Source: an uncultured virus (IMG/VR IMGVR_UViG_3300019458_000025)
Taxonomy: Duplodnaviria; Heunggongvirae; Uroviricota; Caudoviricetes
Virus record (IMG/VR): IMGVR_UViG_3300019458_000025
Direction: 5' to 3' (one strand)
Length of the DNA: 64,000 bases
The first letter of the stretch is position 1. The number at the start of each line of letters is the position of its first letter. Below are positions 10,915-58,671 of this stretch, one piece after another. The notes beneath the pieces were generated by a model. The model was not told where the DNA came from. It did not search any database and worked only from the letters and a program-made list of their open reading frames with translations. The position numbers were made by a program, and so were the translations under genes.

Positions 10915-12666
10915 ATGGCCAAAGTCGGGTACACGAAGACCGACGCGGCGTCCCAGATGGCGGCCCACCCGGACGCGAAGACGAACCTCGCCGGAGGTCT
11001 CGCCTTCAACATCAACGACCCCTCGCAGAAGCTCCTCACGATGATCGGGGCCAGCTTCTTCGACGAGCCGACCTACTACAAGCCGTCTCCGGAGGACAAC
11101 AACGTCAACCGTCAGCCGGTCCTGGCCGGGCTCGCCAAGGAGGGCAAGGTCTCGGCCGAGCGCCTGAACGCGCTCACGGACCGCTCGCGCGAGGTCATCG
11201 AGACCGCGATCAAGGTCGCCAAGGGCGAGAACCCGCGCGACCTCCTCTCGCTCGCCCACTGGTGCCGGACGGAGATGAACATCCGGACGACCCCGCAGGT
11301 GCTTCTCGCGGTCGCCGCGGCCTGCCCGGAGACCCGGAAGTTCGTCCTGGAGTACGCCCCGAAGGTGATCCAGCGCGCGGACGAACTCCGCGACGTCTTC
11401 GCGATCTACAGCTACTTCTTCGGGCACCGGCTCCCGCACTCCCTCAAGAAGGGGCTCTCGAAGGCGTTCACGAAGTTCCGCGAGGCGGACTTCCTCAAGT
11501 ACGACGGCGTGGACCGGCCGACGCTCCGGGACGTCCTCCTCATGGTCGAGCGCGAGAAGGACTACCCGGTCTCGAAGGAGGTCTTCGAGTTCTTCGTGAA
11601 CGGCAAGGTGATCGACGAGGCGAAGACGCCGGTCATCGCCGCGCGGAAGAAGCTCTACCAGATGAAGAGCCTCGACGACGAGGCCAAGAAGCTCGCCAAG
11701 GCGAGCCACGCGAACTGGGAAGTCCTCCGCTCGCAGTTCGGGAAGGAGGTCTGGGCGTTCGCGGTCGAGGAGAAGCTCCTGGGCTACATGGCGACGCTCC
11801 GGAACCTCCGGAACATCCTGGAGGCCCAGGTCTCGAAGTCCGTCGTCAAGGCGGTCGCCGCCCGGCTGTCGGACCCGGAGGAGGTCAAGAAGTCGAAGCA
11901 GCTTCCGTTCCGGTTCTTCTCCGCCTACCGCGTCCTCGCCGGAGACGTCGAGAGCCGGTACGAGGTCGGCCGCGCGAAGGGCCGGATGCGCGAGATGGGC
12001 GAAGTCGATGAGGCGTCGGTCAACATCTTCCTGGACGCGATCGACAAGGCGCTCAAGATCTCGGCCGAGGCGCTCCCGAAGTTCCCGGGCGTGACCGCGA
12101 TCTTCGCCGACAACTCGGGCTCGATGTCGAGCCCGCTCTCGGAGAAGTCCACGCTCTCGGTCGCGGACGCCGCGAACATCCTCTGCGCGCTCAGCCTCTT
12201 CACCTGCGAGGAGACCGTGGTCGGCGCGTTCGGGACCGACGTCGCCGTCTGCCGCCTGTCCCAGGAGGACAAGATCCTCCGGAACATGGAGAAGATCGCC
12301 AAGGCCGACACCAAGGGCTGCTCGACCAACGGCTACCGGATCTTCGACTACCTCCGGGAGAAGAAGATCAAGGTGGACCGGGTGATCATGCTCTCGGACA
12401 TGCAGTGCTGGAACAGCACGCAGTCGGACCGGCAGTTCGCCCCGGCGTTCGTGGAGTACAAGCGTTCGGTGAACCCGGACGTCATCCTCCACTCGGTCGA
12501 TCTCCAGGGCCACGGCGACGCCGTGGTCCCGCCGGGCGAGCCCAAGGTGAACCTGGTGTCGGGGTTCAGCGAGAAGATCCTGGCGCGTCTCGCCGAGTTC
12601 GAGGGGATCGGGACCAAGGAGGACAAGCCGATCGCGACGCTCGATTACGTCCGGGCGAACTTCTAG
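10915..12666 (+). CDS. rsr: Ro60/TROVE-domain RNA-binding protein with C-terminal vWA (Rsr)
   Basis: TNLAGGLAF, FFDEPTYY, IQRADE, MATLRNLRN, KQLPFRFFSAY, DNSGSM, LSDMQ, GFSEK. Confidence 0.92.
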   Translation: MAKVGYTKTDAASQMAAHPDAKTNLAGGLAFNINDPSQKLLTMIGASFFDEPTYYKPSPEDNNVNRQPVLAGLAKEGKVSAERLNALTDRSREVIETAIKVAKGENPRDLLSLAHWCRTEMNIRTTPQVLLAVAAACPETRKFVLEYAPKVIQRADELRDVFAIYSYFFGHRLPHSLKKGLSKAFTKFREADFLKYDGVDRPTLRDVLLMVEREKDYPVSKEVFEFFVNGKVIDEAKTPVIAARKKLYQMKSLDDEAKKLAKASHANWEVLRSQFGKEVWAFAVEEKLLGYMATLRNLRNILEAQVSKSVVKAVAARLSDPEEVKKSKQLPFRFFSAYRVLAGDVESRYEVGRAKGRMREMGEVDEASVNIFLDAIDKALKISAEALPKFPGVTAIFADNSGSMSSPLSEKSTLSVADAANILCALSLFTCEETVVGAFGTDVAVCRLSQEDKILRNMEKIAKADTKGCSTNGYRIFDYLREKKIKVDRVIMLSDMQCWNSTQSDRQFAPAFVEYKRSVNPDVILHSVDLQGHGDAVVPPGEPKVNLVSGFSEKILARLAEFEGIGTKEDKPIATLDYVRANF

Positions 12667-14815: not shown

Positions 14816-15203
14816 GGGGCCGAACTGGTTTCGACCGGGCGTGAAGGTGGATGTGCTGCGTGCCGTGGATCACCGGTTGGCCACGATAAAAATCCGGTGA
14901 AAACCTAACTGCCAAGGACAACGTCCTTCAGTTCCGGAAGTCCGGGGCGCCCGCCTTCCGGGCTCTCGCGGCCTAAGCCGCGACGTCGAGCGGCGTGACG
15001 CCGATAGCGCAGCTTGACGTTAATACCTCGTGCTGGGCAGCCGGAAGAGTCCGGGAGAAGGCTGCCGAGATCAAGACCGGAACAGGGTTGAGGAAGCGTG
15101 GCGATGCGCGTCCGAAAACCCGAGATCAAACCACCGCCTACGCACGTAGATGCCTCCATGGGCTCGCCTTGGGACGAGGGTTCGATTCCCTCCGGCTCCA
15201 CCA
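14816..15203 (+). ncRNA. ssrA: tmRNA; tag AKDNVLQFRKSGAPAFRALAA (14911..14976)
   Basis: 5' GGGGCCGAACTGGTTTCGAC, 3' GGTTCGATTCCCTCCGGCTCCACCA, tag ending ALAA-stop. Confidence 0.95.
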
Positions 15204-26053: not shown

Positions 26054-26081
26054 GAAATAGCTCATCAACTCCACGCTTCAT

Positions 26082-26152
26082 AGGTCACGGTCCAGCGACC
26101 AGCCGGGTCTCCAAAACCCAGCAGCCCGGGGCGGCACCGGGGTGGCCTGCCA
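26082..26152 (+). tRNA. tRNA-Trp(CCA), atypical D and T loops
   Basis: CT-CCA-AA loop, GCCA end. Confidence 0.7.
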
Positions 26153-26160
26153 AAATTCTG

Positions 26161-26206
26161 GTTCCTGAGTGTGCCGGGCGCACGCTACCTTGTCACGGTA
26201 GAAGAA
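26161..26206 (+). pseudogene. 5' part of split tRNA-Asp(GTC)
   Basis: GGTTCCT acceptor strand, D arm, CTACC-TTGTCAC-GGTAG. Confidence 0.7.
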
Positions 26207-26249
26207 ACTTATACCTTGACAGTACCGACATTTTAGTTATTCTTCGGAT

Positions 26250-26807
26250 ATGTACTCTCAAGATCAGTTGACCGCCGCCTTCAAGCTCAGAGGAAAAGGA
26301 TGGCCTACATCGGCCATTTCAAAGAACTTGAAAGTCCCGCATAGGACTGTAGATCGTTGGTTGAAGGGGGTTCCGCCCGGAACCAAGGCCCATCATCTTT
26401 GGAAGTTCAGACCGTGGACGCCAGAGGAGGATCAGAAGATAAGGGAGTGCTGGGGAAAGGTTCTAATGTCCGAAGTCGCCAAAGTGCTCGGACGAAGCAA
26501 AATGGCGTGTGACCAGCGCGGGTGTCGCTTGGGTCTACCTCATAGACCAAAGCGTAATGCCGGGAAATCTCGATATGCCGCACTGAGGAGGGCGAGGAAA
26601 GTCCTTCCTAAGAAGTGTATGGTTTGCGGCTATGACAAGTTCGTGGACTGGCATCATATTATCCCGAGGAAGGAAGGCGGAACACATGACGTTCGTAATA
26701 CGATCATGTTGTGCCCAAACCACCATCGAGAAGCCGATCAGGGGCTCATCTCTAAGAAGACGCTTCTTTCAATAACCGTGAAATATTTGGCGCAGATGGC
26801 AAAGTAG
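26250..26807 (+). CDS. HNH endonuclease with HTH and Myb-like segments; own promoter at 26216
   Basis: CMVCG..WHHIIP..GG....N...LCPNHH; AT-richer than flanks. Confidence 0.85.
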   Translation: MYSQDQLTAAFKLRGKGWPTSAISKNLKVPHRTVDRWLKGVPPGTKAHHLWKFRPWTPEEDQKIRECWGKVLMSEVAKVLGRSKMACDQRGCRLGLPHRPKRNAGKSRYAALRRARKVLPKKCMVCGYDKFVDWHHIIPRKEGGTHDVRNTIMLCPNHHREADQGLISKKTLLSITVKYLAQMAK

Positions 26808-26867
26808 TCGAGCCGCCCGCTTGTCAAGCAGGATACAGAGCGGGTGCGAGTCCCGTCTGCGCCGCCA
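26789..26867 (+). tRNA. tRNA-Asp(GTC)
   Basis: Cloverleaf, GCCA end; overlaps HNH stop. Confidence 0.75.
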
Positions 26868-26868
26868 A

Positions 26869-26892
26869 GTTCGACTCCCGTAGGGATCGCCA
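26869..26892 (+). pseudogene. 3' part of split tRNA-Asp
   Basis: GTTCGACTCCCGT-AGGGATC-GCCA; AGGGATC pairs with GGTTCCT at 26161. Confidence 0.7.
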
Positions 26893-26974
26893 AACTTCGG
26901 CGAGGAAAACGGGCTCCGCGCGAAGAGCCTGCCGCTGGCATGGAAACGCGCGCTTACAGTGGCTCTCGCCATAC

Positions 26975-27159: not shown

Positions 27160-27657
27160 ATGATGACCTGCGGGCAGTGCAAGAAGGCCCAGGCGACCGT
27201 CCACGTCACGTTGCGCGAGAACGGCAAGTACGTCGAGGGCCACTACTGCCCTCCTTGCGCGCAGAAGTCCGGCGCCTGCGACCTCAACGTGACCATGAGC
27301 GACATCATGGCCCAGACGGCGCCGAGACCGCGCCGAGCGTCCCATCACCAGATCCGGTGCCAGCGCTGCGGGATCAGCCTGGCCGACATCAAGAAGAAGA
27401 CCCGGATCGGCTGTTCCGAGGACTACAAGCTTTTCGAGCGCGACCTGGTCGAGTTCATGGATCAATACCACGGGTCGTCGCAGCACGCCGGGAAGGTCCC
27501 CGGGGTCGATCGGCGGACGCGGTTGGAAGCCGAACTCACGCGGCTCCAGGTGGAACTCGGAAAGATCGTCAAGCAGGAAAAATACGAGGACGCGGCGAAG
27601 ATCCGGGACCGCATCCGCCAGATCGAAGCAGATCTTGAGAAAAACGTGGGGTGTTGA
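27160..27657 (+). CDS. mcsA: McsA (protein-arginine kinase activator; CxxC motifs plus UVR domain)
   Basis: CGQC..ATVHVT..CPPCA..CQRCG..RIGCSEDY..HAGKVP..EKYEDAAKIRDRI. Confidence 0.88.
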   Translation: MMTCGQCKKAQATVHVTLRENGKYVEGHYCPPCAQKSGACDLNVTMSDIMAQTAPRPRRASHHQIRCQRCGISLADIKKKTRIGCSEDYKLFERDLVEFMDQYHGSSQHAGKVPGVDRRTRLEAELTRLQVELGKIVKQEKYEDAAKIRDRIRQIEADLEKNVGC

Positions 27658-27779
27658 AGGACAGGCATACTTCTAGGGACCTGGAAGTCCGGGTGCGAAT
27701 CCCGGCGTCGGCATACGGGCCGACGTGGCGTAAGAGCAGCGCGCCAGGAGTAAGGAGCCTATCCGCCTATTGCCCCCAC
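27646..27779 (+). ncRNA. Y RNA-like gene 4 (YrlA-type permuted tRNA domain)
   Basis: Conserved arms; T arm, loop-closed acceptor stem, D arm in that order. Confidence 0.75.
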
Positions 27780-27801
27780 CTTAATTCAATAGTGGATCAG
27801 G

Positions 27802-28491
27802 GTGGAATACCTATACAATGCCACTGTGGTCCACCACGGTCTAAGGAAATCAAAGTTCTTCCTTTCTTCGAAGTACGATGGGAAAACTCGGCGCTGCGCC
27901 TGGGTGAACTGTGGTGCCTGCGGACGAAGATTCATTAAGCCGGTCGCGCGCATTCGTTCGCGCGTCGGATGTTCCATTCTATGCAGGGCTCGACTTCGCA
28001 GGACTTGCGTTACCAGAAAATGTCCTGTATGCAAAAAAGCCTTCCTTGCAAGGCCATCTAGGATTGCTCAGGCCAAAGGACCACTGTGCTGTAGTCGCAA
28101 TTGTCGGAGCACGGCACAACGCATAAACAGCGGTGTAATGGTCTCGCGACCGGAAAACTGGGGGAAAAGCGGCGGACGGTCTGAGGCGGCTAGAATACGC
28201 AAATCGTTTGGTCCTAAAGCTAAATGTGTTGCATGCGGGATAACCTTCAGACCAGTCTTGACACTTCACCATATAGATGGCGATGACCAAAACAATACGA
28301 AGTCAAACCTTGAAATCGTTTGCTGGCTTCATCACGCGATAAGGCACATGGTTCGGAAGGGTAAAACGTGGACATACAGCACAAAACACCTAACACCTAG
28401 AAGGCTTCTTCATAAACTGGAAAGGCTAGTGGCGACTACGAAATTGGGGGGCGTCGTCCAAAGGAAGGACGCCAGTTCGGCAGACTGGTAA
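27802..28491 (+). CDS. HNH endonuclease with Cys-rich repeats
   Basis: LTLHHIDGDDQNNTKSNLEIVCWLHH; AT-richer; overlaps tRNA-Ala. Confidence 0.8.
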   Translation: MEYLYNATVVHHGLRKSKFFLSSKYDGKTRRCAWVNCGACGRRFIKPVARIRSRVGCSILCRARLRRTCVTRKCPVCKKAFLARPSRIAQAKGPLCCSRNCRSTAQRINSGVMVSRPENWGKSGGRSEAARIRKSFGPKAKCVACGITFRPVLTLHHIDGDDQNNTKSNLEIVCWLHHAIRHMVRKGKTWTYSTKHLTPRRLLHKLERLVATTKLGGVVQRKDASSADW

Positions 28492-28520
28492 TGCGGGTTC
28501 GAGTCCCGCCGCTTCCACCA
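28447..28520 (+). tRNA. tRNA-Ala(GGC), C33
   Basis: G3:U70 pair, cloverleaf. Confidence 0.8.
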
Positions 28521-29608: not shown

Positions 29609-29615
29609 TCAATCT

Positions 29616-29750
29616 TGTGAGGTGTTGAAGGTCAGGGTTACTTCCTCTTGAAAAGGAGAGGACCGGTTCGACTCCGGAAGGCGCCCGCAAGGGGGCCTTT
29701 AGTGTAACGGCAGCACGCTATGTTGACCTTGGCCGCCTATTGCCCTCACA
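29616..29750 (+). ncRNA. Y RNA-like gene 8 (permuted tRNA, anticodon-like loop TGA)
   Basis: Order anticodon arm, T arm, GCAA-closed acceptor, D arm. Confidence 0.75.
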
Positions 29751-29756
29751 AAACAT

Positions 29757-29888
29757 TCGGGGTGTTGAAGGGCTCCGTTACTTCCCTTACAAGGACGTGG
29801 TCCGGGTTCGAATCCCGGCGTCGGCCGCAAGGTCGATGTGGTGTAATGGCAGCACACGAACATGACGGTGTCCGCCTATTGCCCCCGA
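29757..29888 (+). ncRNA. Y RNA-like gene 9 (permuted tRNA, anticodon-like loop TAC)
   Basis: Same order as gene 8. Confidence 0.75.
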
Positions 29889-29904
29889 TTAATCTCTCGA
29901 CCTT

Positions 29905-30525: not shown

Positions 30526-30615
30526 GTGTCCCGTTCCGCACGGCGGTCTGTAAAACCGTTGGCAGTAAACAAGTGCGGTGGATGCCGAGAGGTTCGATTC
30601 CTCCGGGGCACACCA
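30526..30615 (+). tRNA. tRNA-Tyr(GTA) lacking a normal D arm, long variable arm
   Basis: CT-GTA-AA loop, GGTTCGATTCC, ACCA. Confidence 0.7.
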
Positions 30616-32210: not shown

Positions 32211-32285
32211 GCCGCGCAAGCGTAGATAGCGACGTTCCCGCCTTGTAAGCAGGAGAGCGGAGTGCAAGTCTCCGGCGCGGCTCCA
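32211..32285 (+). tRNA. tRNA-Thr(TGT)
   Basis: Cloverleaf. Confidence 0.78.
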
Positions 32286-36327: not shown

Positions 36328-36401
36328 GCCGGTGTGGTTCAATAGGAGAACACCTCTTTCGTAAAGAGGAGACGCCGGAGCGTTACCGGCCACCGGCCCC
36401 A
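36328..36401 (+). tRNA. tRNA-Thr(CGT)
   Basis: Cloverleaf, atypical T loop. Confidence 0.78.
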
Positions 36402-37952: not shown

Positions 37953-38030
37953 GGCCCGCTCGACTACGTTTAGCTAGGTCACCGCTCTTTCAAGGCGGAG
38001 GAACCGGGGCAGCACCGGTGCGGGCTACCA
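37953..38030 (+). tRNA. tRNA-Glu(TTC)
   Basis: CT-TTC-AA loop, atypical T loop. Confidence 0.75.
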
Positions 38031-38848: not shown

Positions 38849-39065
38849 GGGCGCATTCGGACACCACGGGGACTGCGAGGTCTTCCGGGTCGATATCTGT
38901 ACATGCGGTTTCCTGCACGATCTCCTTCCGCTGGCGCCCGACACCGAGGCGCTCTATCCGGACTTCTGGCCCCAGTGGAACCGTCATCAGCGGGCGATCG
39001 ACATCCTGTTCGAGAAGAAGATGGCGTCCTCCGAGAAAGCTTCAGGCCCCCGTGACGGGAACTAA
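38784..39065 (+). CDS. His/Cys-motif hypothetical protein (paralog 2)
   Basis: Same motif as upstream ORF. Confidence 0.65.
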   Translation: MDAKRMGRLRERYFRKTTASPEGAFGHHGDCEVFRVDICTCGFLHDLLPLAPDTEALYPDFWPQWNRHQRAIDILFEKKMASSEKASGPRDGN

Positions 39066-39124
39066 GCAGACCTACCTGATTCAAAACCAGGTGTTTGGAG
39101 GTGCAAATCCTCCCGGGGGTACCA
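39046..39124 (+). tRNA. tRNA-Leu(CAA), short V arm
   Basis: TT-CAA-AA loop. Confidence 0.75.
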
Positions 39125-43260: not shown

Positions 43261-43335
43261 CGGGGCATGGGAAACCGGAAATCCGCCGCGCTTGGGACGC
43301 GGAAAAAGAGGGTTCAACTCCCTCTGCCCCGACCA
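43261..43335 (+). tRNA. tRNA-Pro(TGG)
   Basis: Cloverleaf. Confidence 0.82.
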
Positions 43336-43350
43336 CGCAAGGGGTTCATC

Positions 43351-43938
43351 GTGTGCCGGAAATGTCGCACGTTGTTTTCAAGTAGAGTGCGCATAAATGG
43401 CGAGATAAAAACCTTGACTGGAAGAAGATATTGTCTGGAGTGCTCTCCATTCGGATGGCACAATCGAAGCAAACTAGAAATCATGGACCCAAGGGTTGTG
43501 TGGAATGAGAAGAAATTGCGCTGGGCGGTAAGAACAAGCAAGACGGTCAGTAAAGCTCTAATAAAATTGGGCCTAAGACCTGCGGGAGGAAATTACCGTA
43601 CATTTAAGCGTCAGGTGACGCTACTTGAAATAAGTACATCCCACTTCAATCTGAGCTATCATCCCCCACATCCAACAGCCTCCTTTCGAGAGGTATTCTG
43701 TAAGGACAGTCTAATCTCACGAACCACGCTTAGAAAGTATTTAAGAAAAGTAAACGCCGTCAAATGCGCAGGATGTGGAATTTGCGATAGCTACAACGGG
43801 AAACCTATTGTCTTGCAGGTAGAGCATAAAAACGGACAGTCAAACGACAACAGGTTGTCAAATCTTGAATGGCGTTGTCCAAATTGTCATAGCCAAACCG
43901 CTACGTTTTGTAGAATGACAGCGAGGAAGCACGGATAG
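43351..43938 (+). CDS. HNH homing endonuclease
   Basis: CAGCG...YNGKPIVLQVEHKNG..NDNRLSNLEWRCPNCHSQT; AT-rich. Confidence 0.88.
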   Translation: MCRKCRTLFSSRVRINGEIKTLTGRRYCLECSPFGWHNRSKLEIMDPRVVWNEKKLRWAVRTSKTVSKALIKLGLRPAGGNYRTFKRQVTLLEISTSHFNLSYHPPHPTASFREVFCKDSLISRTTLRKYLRKVNAVKCAGCGICDSYNGKPIVLQVEHKNGQSNDNRLSNLEWRCPNCHSQTATFCRMTARKHG

Positions 43939-43966
43939 CTGGGTACAAATCCGGGTGGCCCGACCA
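43932..43966 (+). pseudogene. 3' remnant of a split tRNA-Pro
   Basis: GGGTACAAATCC..GGCCCG-ACCA pairs with CGGGCC at 43188. Confidence 0.5.
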
Positions 43967-45917: not shown

Positions 45918-45965
45918 CCCACTACCCCCCAGGTACGATGCCTGCGTATCAACCTCGACAAGCAC

Positions 45966-46040
45966 GCCCCGGTAGTGTAACAGATCGCACGGCAGTCTCC
46001 GAAGCTGCAAGTGAAGGTGCGATTCCTTCCCGGGGTACCA
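45966..46040 (+). tRNA. tRNA-Arg(CCG)
   Basis: Cloverleaf. Confidence 0.82.
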
Positions 46041-46063
46041 ATAGCCGACGAAAGGAGACGGCC

Positions 46064-46561
46064 GTGTCCCATCCGCTGTGGCCCGACGTCCGCGGAAACG
46101 TCGGGTATCCGAGTCCTCCGCCCGCGGCGCCGAAGGAGCCCGACCGATCGGACCGGGCGTGCAACTGCCCTCATTCCGCCGTGATTCATGGACCAGGTGG
46201 GGGCTGCCGGGGCGCAGGCTGCATGTGCGGATGGGAGCGCGTGAACGGCGCCCTCGTCGAGAAGAACACCGGAGCATCTGGCGCGGAACTCGGAAAACTC
46301 GGGCGCCGTCGCCAGGAGCTTCTCCGGATTCCCTGCTACTACTGCGGTGGGAAGTCCGAGAACCTGGACCATGTGATCCCGCGGTCCCGGGGAGGCGCTG
46401 GTGCCGGGAACAAGGTCGCTTCCTGTATCCGCTGCAACTGCATGAAGTCGAACATGCTTTACGAGGAGTTCATCGAGCAGTGCCGGAAGATCCTGGCGTG
46501 GCACGAGTCGCGCATGCGCGCGCACGCCGCCCGGGACGCCGCGAACGCCCCCGTGGCCTAA
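46064..46561 (+). CDS. HNH endonuclease
   Basis: CYYCG....LDHVIPRSRGG......SCIRCNCMKS; AAGGAG RBS. Confidence 0.8.
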   Translation: MSHPLWPDVRGNVGYPSPPPAAPKEPDRSDRACNCPHSAVIHGPGGGCRGAGCMCGWERVNGALVEKNTGASGAELGKLGRRRQELLRIPCYYCGGKSENLDHVIPRSRGGAGAGNKVASCIRCNCMKSNMLYEEFIEQCRKILAWHESRMRAHAARDAANAPVA

Positions 46562-46623
46562 CTGGATAAGGCTCCCGGCTACGAACCGGGCGACTGAAGG
46601 TTCGAGTCCTTCCGGGGGTACTA
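46547..46623 (+). tRNA. tRNA-Arg(ACG)
   Basis: Canonical cloverleaf, ends ACTA. Confidence 0.88.
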
Positions 46624-57063: not shown

Positions 57064-57330
57064 GTCAACCACCCCGCCCTAAAGGGCGGGGCTTGTGAAA
57101 GGAGGTGTATCACAAGCCCACGTTGACCAGACTAAGCTCGAAGGATGTACAGCTTCGAGCTACGTTCGGCGGGTCATGACACCGGCGGATGCGTTGCCAG
57201 TCCGCCGCTCTGTCGTCCGGCATTAAAAGGCTGAGGGTGTAGGCCGGTGTGCCGGGCATGACAAGCCCGCCGAACATTGTCGAGGCGAACTTTACCCCGA
57301 AAGGGGCGGCCCCGTTATGGGGCATTTTTT
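57064..57330 (+). ncRNA. omegaRNA scaffold (HEARO-like) upstream of iscB
   Basis: GTTGACCAGACTAAG..CTACGTT..CCAGTCC..CTCTG..CATTGTCGAGG pattern. Confidence 0.75.
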
Positions 57331-58667
57331 GACGGAGTAGCGATGCAGCGGGTATTTGTTCTTGGCATGGATGGAAAGGCTCTCATGCCCTGTCGTCCAT
57401 CGAGAGCCAAGGAACTGCTCAAGGCCGGGAAAGCCGTTGTATTTCGTCGCTATCCGTTCACGCTCATCATGAAGAAGCAGACCGGGAAACAGGTTCAGCC
57501 GGTCGCCTTCAAGGTTGACCCGGGCAGCAAAATCACAGGCGGCGCGTTGGTGGCGGACTTCAAGCGCGGCAAGGAGGTCATATGGGCGGCTGAAATCGAG
57601 CACCGGGGACAGGCGGTCCGGGACAATCTTCTGTCGCGAAGGGCCTTGCGCCATGGGAGAAGGAACCGCAAGACGCGGTATCGGAAACAGAGATTCCTGA
57701 ATAGAACGCGCCCGGAAAGCTGGCTCCCTCCAAGCTTGAAGAGCCGGGTTTCAAACATCGCAACGTGGCTCTCGCGCCTCCGGCGCTGGAGTCCGATTTC
57801 ATCGGTTGCCATGGAACTGGTCAAGTTCGACACCCAGAAGATGAAAAACCCTGAAATTTCCGGCGTCGAGTACCAGCAAGGGACGCTCGCGGGATATGAG
57901 GTTCGCGAGTATCTCTTGGAGAAATGGGGTCGGAAATGCGCCTATTGCGGGGTCGAGAATGTCCCCTTAGAGGTGGAACATATTATTCCCAAGAGCCGGG
58001 GAGGTTCAAACGGGGTCTCAAATCTCGCGGTTTCCTGCGAGCCATGCAACAAGACGAAAGGAAATAGCACGGCGGCGGAATTCGGGCATCCCGATGTTCA
58101 GGCGAAGGCGGAAACGCCGCTCAAGGACGCCGCCGCCGTCAACGCAACCAGGTGGAGGCTGTTCGAGAGATTGAAGAAGGCCGGTCTGCCCGTTGAATGT
58201 GGAACGGGAGGCCGGACGAAGTTCAACCGTACGGTCCAAGGCTATCGAAAGGCGCATTGGACGGATGCCGCATGTGCCGGGGTGTCGGGGAGATTCGTAC
58301 GGCTTGACCCCCTCATGCTCCCCATTCTCATCAGAGCGGTTGGGCACGGAATCCGTCAGATGTGCGGCACGGACAGGTTCGGCTTTCCAAAGCGCCATCG
58401 GATGCGCCAGAAGTCCCACCATGGCTTTCAGACGGGCGATATAGTGCGCGCCGTGGTTCCGAACGGGAAAAGGAAAGGGACGCACATAGGCGTTGTTCTG
58501 TGTCGGGCCTCTGGAAGCTTTGATATTAAAACCAGGGGCGGACGCGCGGCGGGCATCAGTTACAGACATTGCGTGGTTGTTCAGCGGGCTGATGGATATT
58601 CGTATGCTGTAGGAGGCGGCGCTTCCTTCCCCGGCCTGAAGGCTGGGGCTTCCGCGCCGTCCATTTG
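57064..58667 (+). mobile_element. Non-autonomous IS200/IS605-family IscB element
   Basis: Left end GTCAACCACCCCGCCCTAAAGGGCGGGGCTTG; right-end hairpin CCCCGGCCTGAAGGCTGGGG; no tnpA inside. Confidence 0.88.
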
Positions 58668-58671
58668 GTGA
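57343..58671 (+). CDS. iscB: IscB RNA-guided endonuclease
   Basis: (P)LMP domain, RuvC-I VDPGSK, Arg-rich bridge helix, ELVKFD, HNH, HWTDAAC. Confidence 0.93.
   Translation: MQRVFVLGMDGKALMPCRPSRAKELLKAGKAVVFRRYPFTLIMKKQTGKQVQPVAFKVDPGSKITGGALVADFKRGKEVIWAAEIEHRGQAVRDNLLSRRALRHGRRNRKTRYRKQRFLNRTRPESWLPPSLKSRVSNIATWLSRLRRWSPISSVAMELVKFDTQKMKNPEISGVEYQQGTLAGYEVREYLLEKWGRKCAYCGVENVPLEVEHIIPKSRGGSNGVSNLAVSCEPCNKTKGNSTAAEFGHPDVQAKAETPLKDAAAVNATRWRLFERLKKAGLPVECGTGGRTKFNRTVQGYRKAHWTDAACAGVSGRFVRLDPLMLPILIRAVGHGIRQMCGTDRFGFPKRHRMRQKSHHGFQTGDIVRAVVPNGKRKGTHIGVVLCRASGSFDIKTRGGRAAGISYRHCVVVQRADGYSYAVGGGASFPGLKAGASAPSIW

What the first reader, a model, noticed from the sequence alone, without database searches (positions are those of the whole stretch)
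26161..26892. HNH cassette that splits a tRNA-Asp gene and carries its own replacement tRNA-Asp
Seen: 26161..26206 is the 5' two-thirds of a tRNA-Asp(GTC). 26869..26892 is its T loop and acceptor 3' strand (AGGGATC pairs with GGTTCCT), with only about 3 nt missing at the junction. Between them lie a promoter (TTGACA..TATTCT), an AT-richer HNH gene and a sequence-divergent intact tRNA-Asp(GTC) that overlaps the HNH stop codon. Known: free-standing homing endonucleases spread through phage tRNA regions. Inference: a 'cut-and-replace' homing element that destroys its target tRNA gene and compensates with an immune isoacceptor.
Basis: partly seen in the sequence, partly recalled or inferred. Interest (0 to 1): 0.74.

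Follow-up and report, generated by a model that had tools for sequence, protein, structure and literature searches.

The report
HNH cassette splits phage tRNA-Asp gene
In the big tRNA gene array of an uncultured huge phage, a selfish nuclease gene has landed inside the tRNA-Asp gene and broken it, with a second, weaker tRNA-Asp gene lodged between the two halves; it is a real and tidy, but so far single, example of a known kind of mobile element.

Summary
Window 26160-26206 and 26869-26892 are positions 1-47 and 51-74 of one tRNA-Asp(GTC); 3 nt of the T-stem are missing. The halves are separated by 662 nt: a sigma-70-like promoter, an intact, AT-richer HTH/Myb-like/HNH ORF (26250-26807) and a second tRNA-Asp(GTC) (26789-26867) that overlaps the HNH stop. 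Syntenic relatives carry the uninterrupted gene and no such HNH, so the split is derived. ARAGORN calls the halves a tRNA only after the 3-nt gap is filled.

The interpretation needs correcting. The "replacement" tRNA is not private HNH cargo. The same unusual paralogue (T-loop G55) lies 8 nt downstream of the intact tRNA-Asp in HNH-free relatives and is absent in a third relative. There it scores 46 bits; here only 23.8, below Rfam's threshold of 29. G55 T-loops occur in about a quarter of both arrays' tRNAs. No second copy of this HNH exists in the collections searched; cutting and immunity are untested.

Best reading: a free-standing homing-endonuclease-type gene, interlocked with the neighbouring Asp paralogue, was captured at a break in the T-stem. 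T4 SegB, which recognises the DNA of tRNA T-arms, is the closest precedent. This is a new variant of a known kind, of moderate interest.

The parts
26160..26206 (+). 5' part of the broken canonical tRNA-Asp(GTC), tRNA positions 1-47
   Evidence: Sequence. 85% identity with the intact gene and its upstream spacer in L003. All stems pair once the gap is filled. Not called alone by ARAGORN or Rfam.
26207..26249 (+). Left end of the insert, with a sigma-70-like promoter (26216-26243) ending 6 nt before the HNH start codon
   Evidence: Promoter scan: 10 of 12 matches, 16-nt spacer. No counterpart in relatives G001 or G002.
26250..26807 (+). Intact 185-aa ORF with HTH_23, a Myb-like region and a C-terminal zinc-finger HNH nuclease domain; AT-richer than its surroundings
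   Evidence: Pfam and PHROGs HNH families. The invariant CxxC..HH..N..CPNxH columns of the family alignment are all present. GC and GC3. Absent from G001 and G002.
26789..26867 (+). Second, non-canonical tRNA-Asp(GTC) ('N'), with a G55 T-loop, one C.A mismatch in the anticodon stem and an encoded CCA; its first 19 nt also encode the HNH C-terminus and stop codon
   Evidence: ARAGORN. Rfam 23.8 bits, below the threshold of 29. Orthologues in L003 and L007, with 5 pairs changed on both sides and 98.3% of cells paired. The L003 orthologue scores 46.2 bits.
26868..26868 (+). Single A between the CCA of N and the 3' remnant (right junction)
   Evidence: Sequence. The junction is spanned with 0 differences by contigs from two runs.
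26869..26892 (+). 3' part of the broken canonical tRNA-Asp, positions 51-74: one T-stem base, T loop, T-stem 3' strand, acceptor 3' strand, G73, CCA
   Evidence: 26 of 26 identical to L003 when the next 2 nt are included. The same 24 nt are preceded by an intact T-stem in all 19 viral and metagenomic loci. Acceptor pairing 7 of 7 with 26160-26166.
26893..26974 (+). 82-nt stretch between the 3' remnant and tRNA-Gln(CTG); unexplained. It occupies the place taken by spacer plus N in the L003 type and by 1 nt in L106
   Evidence: No match in G001 or G002 or in IMG/VR. The predicted fold is not significant, z = -1.78. Present in a second sample.

Best explanation
A free-standing HNH endonuclease gene of homing type sits inside the canonical tRNA-Asp(GTC) gene of a huge phage's tRNA array. 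It has its own promoter and is physically interlocked with a neighbouring tRNA-Asp paralogue (N). The insert enters the 5' strand of the T-stem, costs 3 nt and kills that gene. N, a resident and weaker paralogue type of this phage group, is then the only tRNA-Asp gene that ARAGORN finds in the window. SHOWN: the anatomy; that the split is derived; that the HNH is absent from relatives; that N occurs without the HNH in relatives; that the halves are undecayed. INFERRED, by analogy with T4 SegB: a double-strand break in or beside the T-arm DNA of tRNA-Asp was repaired by capturing an HNH-N segment. The likely donor had the HNH in its usual intergenic position, between the spacer and N. The left junction (AAGAAAC) resembles the spacer that precedes N in relatives (AAAGAAAA then C), which fits a microhomology join. 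A cycle of amplification and collapse within one genome is an alternative route to the same order. The loss is tolerated because tRNA-Asp is redundant (N and the host's tRNA), not because the cassette evolved to replace it.
For: Split and derived state. Three intact allele states exist in syntenic relatives: Asp-1 nt-Gln in L106; Asp-8 nt-N-Gln in L003, L007, L009, L010 and L014, where L003 and L014 are the same contig. The arrays share tRNA order over tens of kb. The HNH has an intact catalytic motif and DNA-binding modules, a promoter-like site and atypical composition, and it is absent from G001 and G002. Relatives of this HNH recur in phage tRNA arrays: 18 of 80 IMG/VR loci have a tRNA within about 1.5 kb, and 8 (6 distinct) lie in same-strand arrays with a tRNA just downstream (the script printed 81 because it counted ARAGORN's summary line). 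N is a conserved structured gene. The halves are undecayed: 7 differences from L003, all in the 5' part, including a compensatory pair at 12/22, and 21 of 21 pairs form. Precedent: SegB recognises a 27-bp site containing the conserved T-psi-C stem-loop motif and cuts at the 3' ends of tRNA genes (PMC2330249, abstract and discussion passages). SegB also drives rearrangement of a tRNA-plus-segB unit, with microhomology at the repeat boundary (PMC13096335, abstract and passages). The junctions are real in two samples.
Against: No cleavage data exist. The HNH has no close relative: the best full-length hits are at or below 43% identity. No second copy or donor arrangement (Asp-spacer-HNH-N) was found, so spread is not shown. 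The empty site of this sub-lineage (Asp followed by the 82-nt stretch) was not found. The microhomology is 5-6 nt and was read by eye. The order 5' half-HNH-N-3' half cannot be derived from the L003 order in one simple step. Many tRNAs in the same genome share the canonical T-arm (35 of 46 ARAGORN calls lack the GGTGC form), so a nuclease that recognised only the T-arm would cut its own genome; extra specificity has to be assumed.
Confidence: 0.62

Rival explanations
1. HNH and N are one evolved mobile unit: the nuclease targets canonical tRNA-Asp genes, its insertion destroys them, and the carried T-loop-variant isoacceptor is immune and keeps the phage supplied, which also makes the cassette hard to lose.
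For: N lies inside the insert and shares 19 nt with the HNH ORF. N differs from the canonical gene at 2 of 7 T-loop positions, right beside the break point. N is present in some relatives and absent in another. No other tRNA-Asp is called in the window.
Against: The N type occurs without any HNH next to an intact tRNA-Asp in 5 loci. The window's N is a poor tRNA: 23.8 bits against 46.2 for its orthologue. The G55 loop is common across both arrays, 11 of 46 and 12 of 43. This HNH appears in only one contig lineage. Two of the three HNH ORFs in the window that read into a downstream tRNA do so into a canonical U55 tRNA.
Confidence: 0.15
2. Passenger model. The split and the reordering came from recombination among the array's many near-identical T-arms, or from another nuclease, and this HNH merely sits at the scar.
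For: The T-arms of the canonical gene and of N match at 15 of 17 positions, read by eye. The array holds at least five HNH ORFs and many tRNA fragments. The Asp|Gln junction differs in all three allele types.
Against: Both junctions are non-homologous: N is complete through its CCA and no chimeric tRNA is present. The only material with no counterpart in relatives at the left junction is the promoter plus the HNH.
Confidence: 0.17
3. The interrupted gene still works: the 662 nt act as an intron, or the halves form a split tRNA.
For: The halves are undecayed and lie on one strand in the right order.
Against: 3 nt of the T-stem are absent, and the direct join is not a tRNA. No intron or ribozyme family was found at E<=10. 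The ORF and N fill nearly all of the insert, leaving only 43 nt upstream.
Confidence: 0.03
4. Assembly artefact.
For: Metagenomic contig; T-arm repeats.
Against: An independent Logan contig of 87,970 nt from X1 has 0 differences, and a junction-spanning contig comes from a second sample and study. X1 may be the source sample, so it is not fully independent.
Confidence: 0.03

Closest known systems
T4 SegB, a free-standing homing endonuclease in the phage tRNA gene cluster (PMC2330249; PMC13096335)
   Same: A nuclease gene embedded in a phage tRNA array, absent from related phages whose arrays are otherwise homologous. SegB recognises the T-psi-C stem-loop DNA and cuts near the 3' ends of tRNA genes, and here the break lies in the T-stem. 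SegB co-mobilises or rearranges neighbouring tRNA genes as a unit, with microhomology at the boundary.
   Different: SegB is GIY-YIG, not HNH. It lies between tRNA genes and splits none. Its activity is shown by experiment, whereas nothing is shown here.
HNH nicking and homing endonucleases of the phage T5 tRNA region (recalled from memory; no call)
   Same: HNH-family genes interspersed among phage tRNA genes.
   Different: As recalled, they are intergenic.
Group I introns with homing endonucleases in bacterial and phage tRNA genes (mentioned in the introduction of PMC2330249)
   Same: A mobile nuclease-bearing insert inside a tRNA gene.
   Different: Those sit in the anticodon loop and splice out, so the tRNA survives. 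Here there is no ribozyme, the site is the T-stem, 3 nt are lost and the gene is dead.
Integrase-mediated insertion into tRNA gene 3' ends
   Same: A displaced 3' tRNA fragment lies downstream of an insert. A likely example was seen in passing: a Hyphomicrobiaceae MAG has a second 3' piece of its tRNA-Glu about 2.9 kb away.
   Different: Integrating elements rebuild the tRNA with their own copy of the 3' end. Here the 5' half is left unrepaired, the fragment is not a repeat of N's 3' end, and no integrase was noticed nearby.

Membership tests
Free-standing homing endonuclease gene (HEG) | Intact nuclease catalytic motif | tested here: met
   Pfam HNH_2 4e-9 and HNH 3e-8. All invariant columns of the 12-sequence family alignment (C123, C126, H135, H136, N150, C155, P156, N157, H159) are present in the window protein.
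Free-standing homing endonuclease gene (HEG) | Present in one genome and absent from the homologous locus of close relatives | tested here: met
   Syntenic arrays. No homologue in G001 (92% complete) or G002. The tRNA-Asp is intact in the relatives.
Free-standing homing endonuclease gene (HEG) | Not within an intron or intein; own expression signals | tested here: met
   Promoter-like site, 10 of 12 matches. No intron family at E<=10. A consensus match is not proof of function.
Free-standing homing endonuclease gene (HEG) | Site-specific cleavage of the HEG-less allele near the insertion point | not testable with these tools
   Needs an enzyme assay.
Free-standing homing endonuclease gene (HEG) | Evidence of spread (same gene in several genomes or sites) | tested here: not met
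   Only the window's own protein and one 47%-identity partial hit by word search. HMMER finds 2843 hits at E<=0.001, but the best full-length relatives are at or below 43% identity.
Functional tRNA (the carried tRNA-Asp, N) | Scores as a tRNA | tested here: inconclusive
   ARAGORN calls it. Rfam gives 23.8 bits against a gathering score of 29. The L003 orthologue scores 46.2 bits, yet ARAGORN misses it.
Functional tRNA (the carried tRNA-Asp, N) | Cloverleaf maintained by compensatory change | tested here: met
   5 of 20 pairs changed on both sides and 98.3% of cells paired; slid controls give 43-55%. Only 3 sequences, two of them near-identical.
Functional tRNA (the carried tRNA-Asp, N) | Conserved U54-U55-C56 T-loop | tested here: not met
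   The loop reads TGCGAGT, i.e. G at position 55. The same variant is in 11 of 46 and 12 of 43 array tRNAs, so it may be tolerated in this system.
Functional tRNA (the split canonical tRNA-Asp) | Complete T-stem and a tRNA call | tested here: not met
   Positions 48-50 are absent. The direct join gives 0 ARAGORN genes; the gap-filled join is called.
Group I intron in a tRNA gene | Ribozyme core and an intact spliced product | tested here: not met
   No intron family hit. The joined exons lack 3 nt.

The most novel reading that the evidence does not exclude
The HNH and the G55-variant tRNA-Asp form a true cut-and-replace module. The nuclease reads the T-arm DNA of canonical tRNA-Asp genes, breaks them and installs itself together with a T-loop variant it cannot cut. 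More broadly, the G55 T-loops carried by about a quarter of the tRNAs in these huge-phage arrays would be footprints of an arms race with homing endonucleases, or host nucleases, that target T-arms.
Probability: 0.12. Interest if true: 0.8.

Novelty: new variant of a known kind. Interest (0 to 1): 0.45.

Why it matters
Free-standing homing endonucleases normally settle between genes, or hide in introns and inteins, so that the host gene survives. Here one sits directly inside a tRNA gene and kills it, next to a redundant isoacceptor. That gives a natural snapshot of how endonuclease-driven breaks at conserved T-arm DNA can remodel phage tRNA arrays. Three allele states at this site are available in relatives. 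It yields a simple testable prediction: cleavage at T-stem positions 47-51 of the intact allele, and protection by the G55 loop. It also draws attention to an unexplained abundance of G55 T-loops in these phage tRNAs. It remains one instance with no activity data.

Tried and rejected
Rfam scoring of each half as a truncated tRNA gave no tRNA hit; nhmmer with the array's own profile missed the 5' half and gave E 7.4 for the 3' half. ARAGORN on 360 join variants called 118, which is too lenient to be informative, so it was replaced by the controlled test. No whole genome is held. Earlier-findings look-up: nothing. The IMG/VR scan with the upstream flanking protein found no relative. The exact 5'-half pattern had 0 matches, the 82-nt-stretch pattern 0, and the pattern for the 3' end of N 0. 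The deposited phage collection gave only generic tRNA hits at 78-81% identity. Runs: X2 has no cover over 26076-26823, so it says nothing about the left junction, and no uninterrupted variant was seen in either run; contigs drop rare variants, so this is no evidence of absence. The X1 'joint' that skips 1015 nt rests on 28- and 36-nt pieces with 3-4 mismatches and 240 other letters between them, so it is another organism's tRNAs. Idea that G55 tRNAs cluster beside HNH genes: not supported, since of the three tRNAs read into by HNH ORFs only N has G55. Idea that the 82-nt stretch is a decayed copy of N: no T-arm or GTC loop is visible, and its fold has z = -1.78. Integrase-type att duplication: rejected, because the fragment pairs with the 5' half and not with N. 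The PDB sequence search places the HNH domain nearest the IscB, McrA and Cas8-HNH type domains (E 2e-5 to 5e-3) and names no characterised homing enzyme. No structure prediction or complex prediction was run.

Full report
CONTEXT. The window is part of a metagenomic contig; the HNH protein's cluster sits on a single 139,916-bp contig. No whole genome is held. Its content looks like a huge phage. ARAGORN finds 46 tRNA genes and a tmRNA, almost all between 25.3 and 46.6 kb on the + strand. Rfam confirms 38 tRNAs, a tRNA-Sec, the tmRNA and a HEARO RNA at curated thresholds. Pfam finds a Ro60/TROVE protein, a ubiquitin-conjugating-like enzyme, glycosyltransferases and several HNH genes. Runs that hold the stretch are labelled cave metagenomes.

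THE OBSERVATION. The sequence at 26160-26206 reads as acceptor 5' strand, D arm, anticodon arm (GTC), a 4-nt variable loop and the first T-stem base. The sequence at 26869-26892 reads as the last T-stem 5' base, T loop, T-stem 3' strand, acceptor 3' strand, G73 and CCA.

Neither piece reaches Rfam's tRNA model, even when the search stretch ends at the junction so that truncated matches are allowed. The decisive evidence is comparative. The exact 24-nt 3' fragment occurs in 2 IMG/VR loci, 17 metagenome loci and 4 GTDB loci. In all 19 viral and metagenomic loci it is preceded by an intact T-stem.

L003, from a 266,490-bp viral contig, is syntenic with the window. Its order is tRNA-Gly(CCC), a conserved spacer, an intact tRNA-Asp(GTC), tRNA-Gln(CTG), tRNA-Phe and tRNA-Ala(GGC). 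The two arrays share gene order over tens of kilobases. BLAST aligns window 26079-26204 with L003 at 85% (E 1e-35) and window 26869-26894 at 26 of 26. Positions 48-50 (CGG) are missing from the window.

ARAGORN finds nothing in the direct join, in either half alone, or in the reversed order. It calls a 74-nt tRNA-Asp(GTC) once the three bases are supplied from L003. All 21 stem pairs then form. The 7 differences from L003 all lie in the 5' part and include a compensatory change at 12/22, so the halves have not decayed. Only 0.29% of window 7-mers would pair 7 of 7 with the acceptor 5' strand.

A Logan contig of 87,970 nt from run X1 (possibly the source sample) covers the region with no differences. 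A 153-nt contig from X2, a different sample and study, crosses the right junction with no differences.

THE INSERT (26207-26868, 662 nt).
- Promoter: a promoter-like site with 10 of 12 consensus matches ends 6 nt before the ATG.
- ORF: the 185-aa ORF has HTH_23, a Myb-like region and a C-terminal zinc-finger HNH domain. It retains every invariant residue of a 12-member family alignment.
- Composition: GC falls to 0.47-0.555 against 0.61-0.66 in the flanks. GC3 is 0.58 against 0.86-0.91 in neighbouring genes.
- Relatives: the word-based search found only the protein itself and one partial hit. Exhaustive HMMER found 2843 proteins at E<=0.001 and 186 at E<=1e-10, including roughly 190-aa proteins with the same Myb-like plus HNH layout, but none above about 43% identity.
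- Habit of the family: of 80 IMG/VR loci that encode relatives, 18 have a tRNA within about 1.5 kb. Eight (six distinct) lie in same-strand tRNA arrays with a tRNA just downstream. I ran no background control for these counts.
- Absence elsewhere: the HNH is absent from the 92%-complete relative G001 and from G002.

THE 'REPLACEMENT' tRNA. The last 19 nt of the ORF, including its stop codon, lie inside a second tRNA-Asp(GTC), here called N (26789-26867). N is not private cargo. In L003, L007, L009, L010 and L014 (L003 and L014 are the same contig), a gene of the same type follows the intact tRNA-Asp after 8 nt and precedes tRNA-Gln. It shares the odd D loop and the G55 T-loop. Between the window and these relatives the acceptor and D stems differ by fully compensatory changes: 5 pairs changed on both sides, 98.3% of cells paired, slid controls 43-55%. 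It is therefore a conserved structured RNA.

In L003 both Asp genes score well (46.8 and 46.2 bits). The window's N scores 23.8, below Rfam's threshold of 29. It has a C.A mismatch in the anticodon stem, A38 where the relatives have C38, and a longer variable region.

In a third relative, L106 (a 60.6-kb contig binned in a Nitrospiraceae MAG), the intact tRNA-Asp is followed after 1 nt by tRNA-Gln. N, the HNH and the 82-nt stretch are found nowhere in that genome. N is therefore itself variably present.

The G55 loop is not special to N. It occurs in 11 of 46 ARAGORN tRNAs in the window and 12 of 43 in G001.

HOW IT MOST LIKELY AROSE AND WORKS. Shown: relative to the L003 order (5' half, 3' half, spacer, N, Gln), the window has 5' half, promoter-HNH-N, one A, 3' half, an 82-nt unknown stretch, Gln. 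Both junctions are non-homologous: N is complete through its CCA, and there is no chimeric tRNA.

Inferred: the break lies in the T-stem, beside the most conserved DNA of any tRNA gene. T4 SegB, a homing endonuclease that lives in a phage tRNA cluster, recognises a site built around the T-psi-C stem-loop motif and cuts at the 3' ends of tRNA genes. It also spreads its own gene together with neighbouring tRNA genes (PMC2330249, abstract and passages). SegB further drives rearrangement of a tRNA-plus-segB unit, with microhomology at the unit boundary (PMC13096335, abstract and passages).

By analogy, I propose a nuclease-made break in the T-arm of tRNA-Asp that was repaired by capturing an HNH-N segment. 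The left junction reads AAGAAAC. The spacer before N in relatives reads AAAGAAAA followed by C. This suggests a donor in which the HNH occupied the ordinary intergenic position between spacer and N, and a microhomology join. That donor was not found, nor was the true empty site of this sub-lineage. An amplification-and-collapse route within one genome is equally possible.

The canonical gene is dead. N and the host's tRNA presumably cover tRNA-Asp supply. Because the HNH stop codon lies inside N, RNase P processing of N would remove the stop codon from the same transcript. Nuclease expression and N maturation may therefore be mutually exclusive per transcript; this is inference only.

RIVALS.
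- Evolved cut-and-replace module: not excluded, but weakened by N occurring without the HNH, by N's low score here, by the commonness of G55 and by the lack of other copies.
- Passenger model (the HNH merely sits at a recombination scar): cannot be excluded without enzymology.
- Functional intron or split tRNA: very unlikely, because 3 nt are missing, there is no ribozyme and the direct join is not a tRNA.
- Assembly artefact: very unlikely.

VERDICT. This is a new variant of a known kind: free-standing homing-type endonucleases in phage tRNA arrays. It is a single instance with no activity data, of moderate interest.

Noticed in passing
window 27648-27790, 29615-29755, 29758-29890 (+); Ro60/TROVE ORF 10915-12663: Three units with conserved flanks (GGTGTTGAAGG...TTACTTC on the left, CCGCCTATTGCCCCC on the right). 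Each encloses a permuted tRNA-like core in the order variable hairpin, T arm, acceptor stem closed by a tetraloop, D arm. The consensus fold has 44 pairs, 14 of them with compensatory changes. Order and motif resemble YrlA-type Y RNAs (GNCGAAN0-1G motif; PMC4201824 passages), and the phage encodes Ro60. No Rfam family matches at E<=1, so this is a reading by resemblance.
   Followed up: partly
window 57064-57295 and 57277-58671 (+): A HEARO RNA (164.5 bits) lies directly upstream of, and overlaps, a 464-aa RRXRR + HNH ORF. This is an IscB-like pair inside a phage contig.
   Followed up: no
window array 25.3-46.6 kb; G001 57-84 kb: A G55 T-loop (GGTGC in place of GGTTC) occurs in 11 of 46 and 12 of 43 ARAGORN tRNAs, although U55 is recalled to be nearly universal. 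All tRNAs encode CCA. The cause is unknown.
   Followed up: partly
window 27802-28491 / tRNA-Ala(GGC) 28447-28520; 45938-46561 / tRNA-Arg(ACG) 46547-46621; 26250-26807 / tRNA-Asp 26789-26867: Three HNH ORFs in the array end inside the next tRNA gene, with overlaps of 45, 15 and 19 nt. Relatives L062 and L063 do the same. RNase P processing would strip the stop codon, and the phage has its own tmRNA (14816-15203).
   Followed up: no
window 43261-43966: An intact tRNA-Pro(TGG) is followed by an HNH_3-type ORF (43267-43938; phrog_10822 at 4e-33). Right at the ORF's stop codon lies a 3' tRNA fragment whose acceptor 3' strand differs by 1 nt from that of tRNA-Pro. This may be a second HNH-associated tRNA remnant.
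   Followed up: partly
window 26874-26954, run X2: A 151-nt, low-depth (2.3) contig matches the 3' remnant and the 82-nt stretch with 5 differences, but unlike AT-rich sequence precedes 26874. A related phage may have a different insert at nearly the same point of the T loop. The evidence is too thin to rely on.
   Followed up: no
window 26072-26156 (+): By eye, the conserved 'spacer' upstream of the split gene is a reduced tRNA-Trp(CCA)-like element with a CTCCAAA loop, a 7-bp acceptor stem and CCA. L007 and L106 have an ARAGORN tRNA-Trp(CCA) between Gly(CCC) and Asp. No tool scored it.
   Followed up: no
window 36328-36398, 39061-39124, 32223-32270, 30588-30615, 37975-38030: Further tRNAs or tRNA pieces that ARAGORN missed: 36328-36398 scores 55.2 bits in Rfam; 39061-39124 has nhmmer E 8e-9 and an odd anticodon loop.
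   Followed up: no
L104/L105 (one contig of a Hyphomicrobiaceae MAG); L004, L006, L008, L011, L012, L015, L018, L019: A tRNA-Glu(TTC), probably cellular (by eye), shares its last 24 nt exactly with the phage tRNA-Asp. In the MAG, a second 3' piece lies about 2.9 kb from the intact gene, which looks like an integration scar.
   Followed up: no
window 26893-26974: An 82-nt stretch of unknown nature sits where relatives have spacer+N or 1 nt. It has a 7-bp terminal stem but its fold is not significant.
   Followed up: partly
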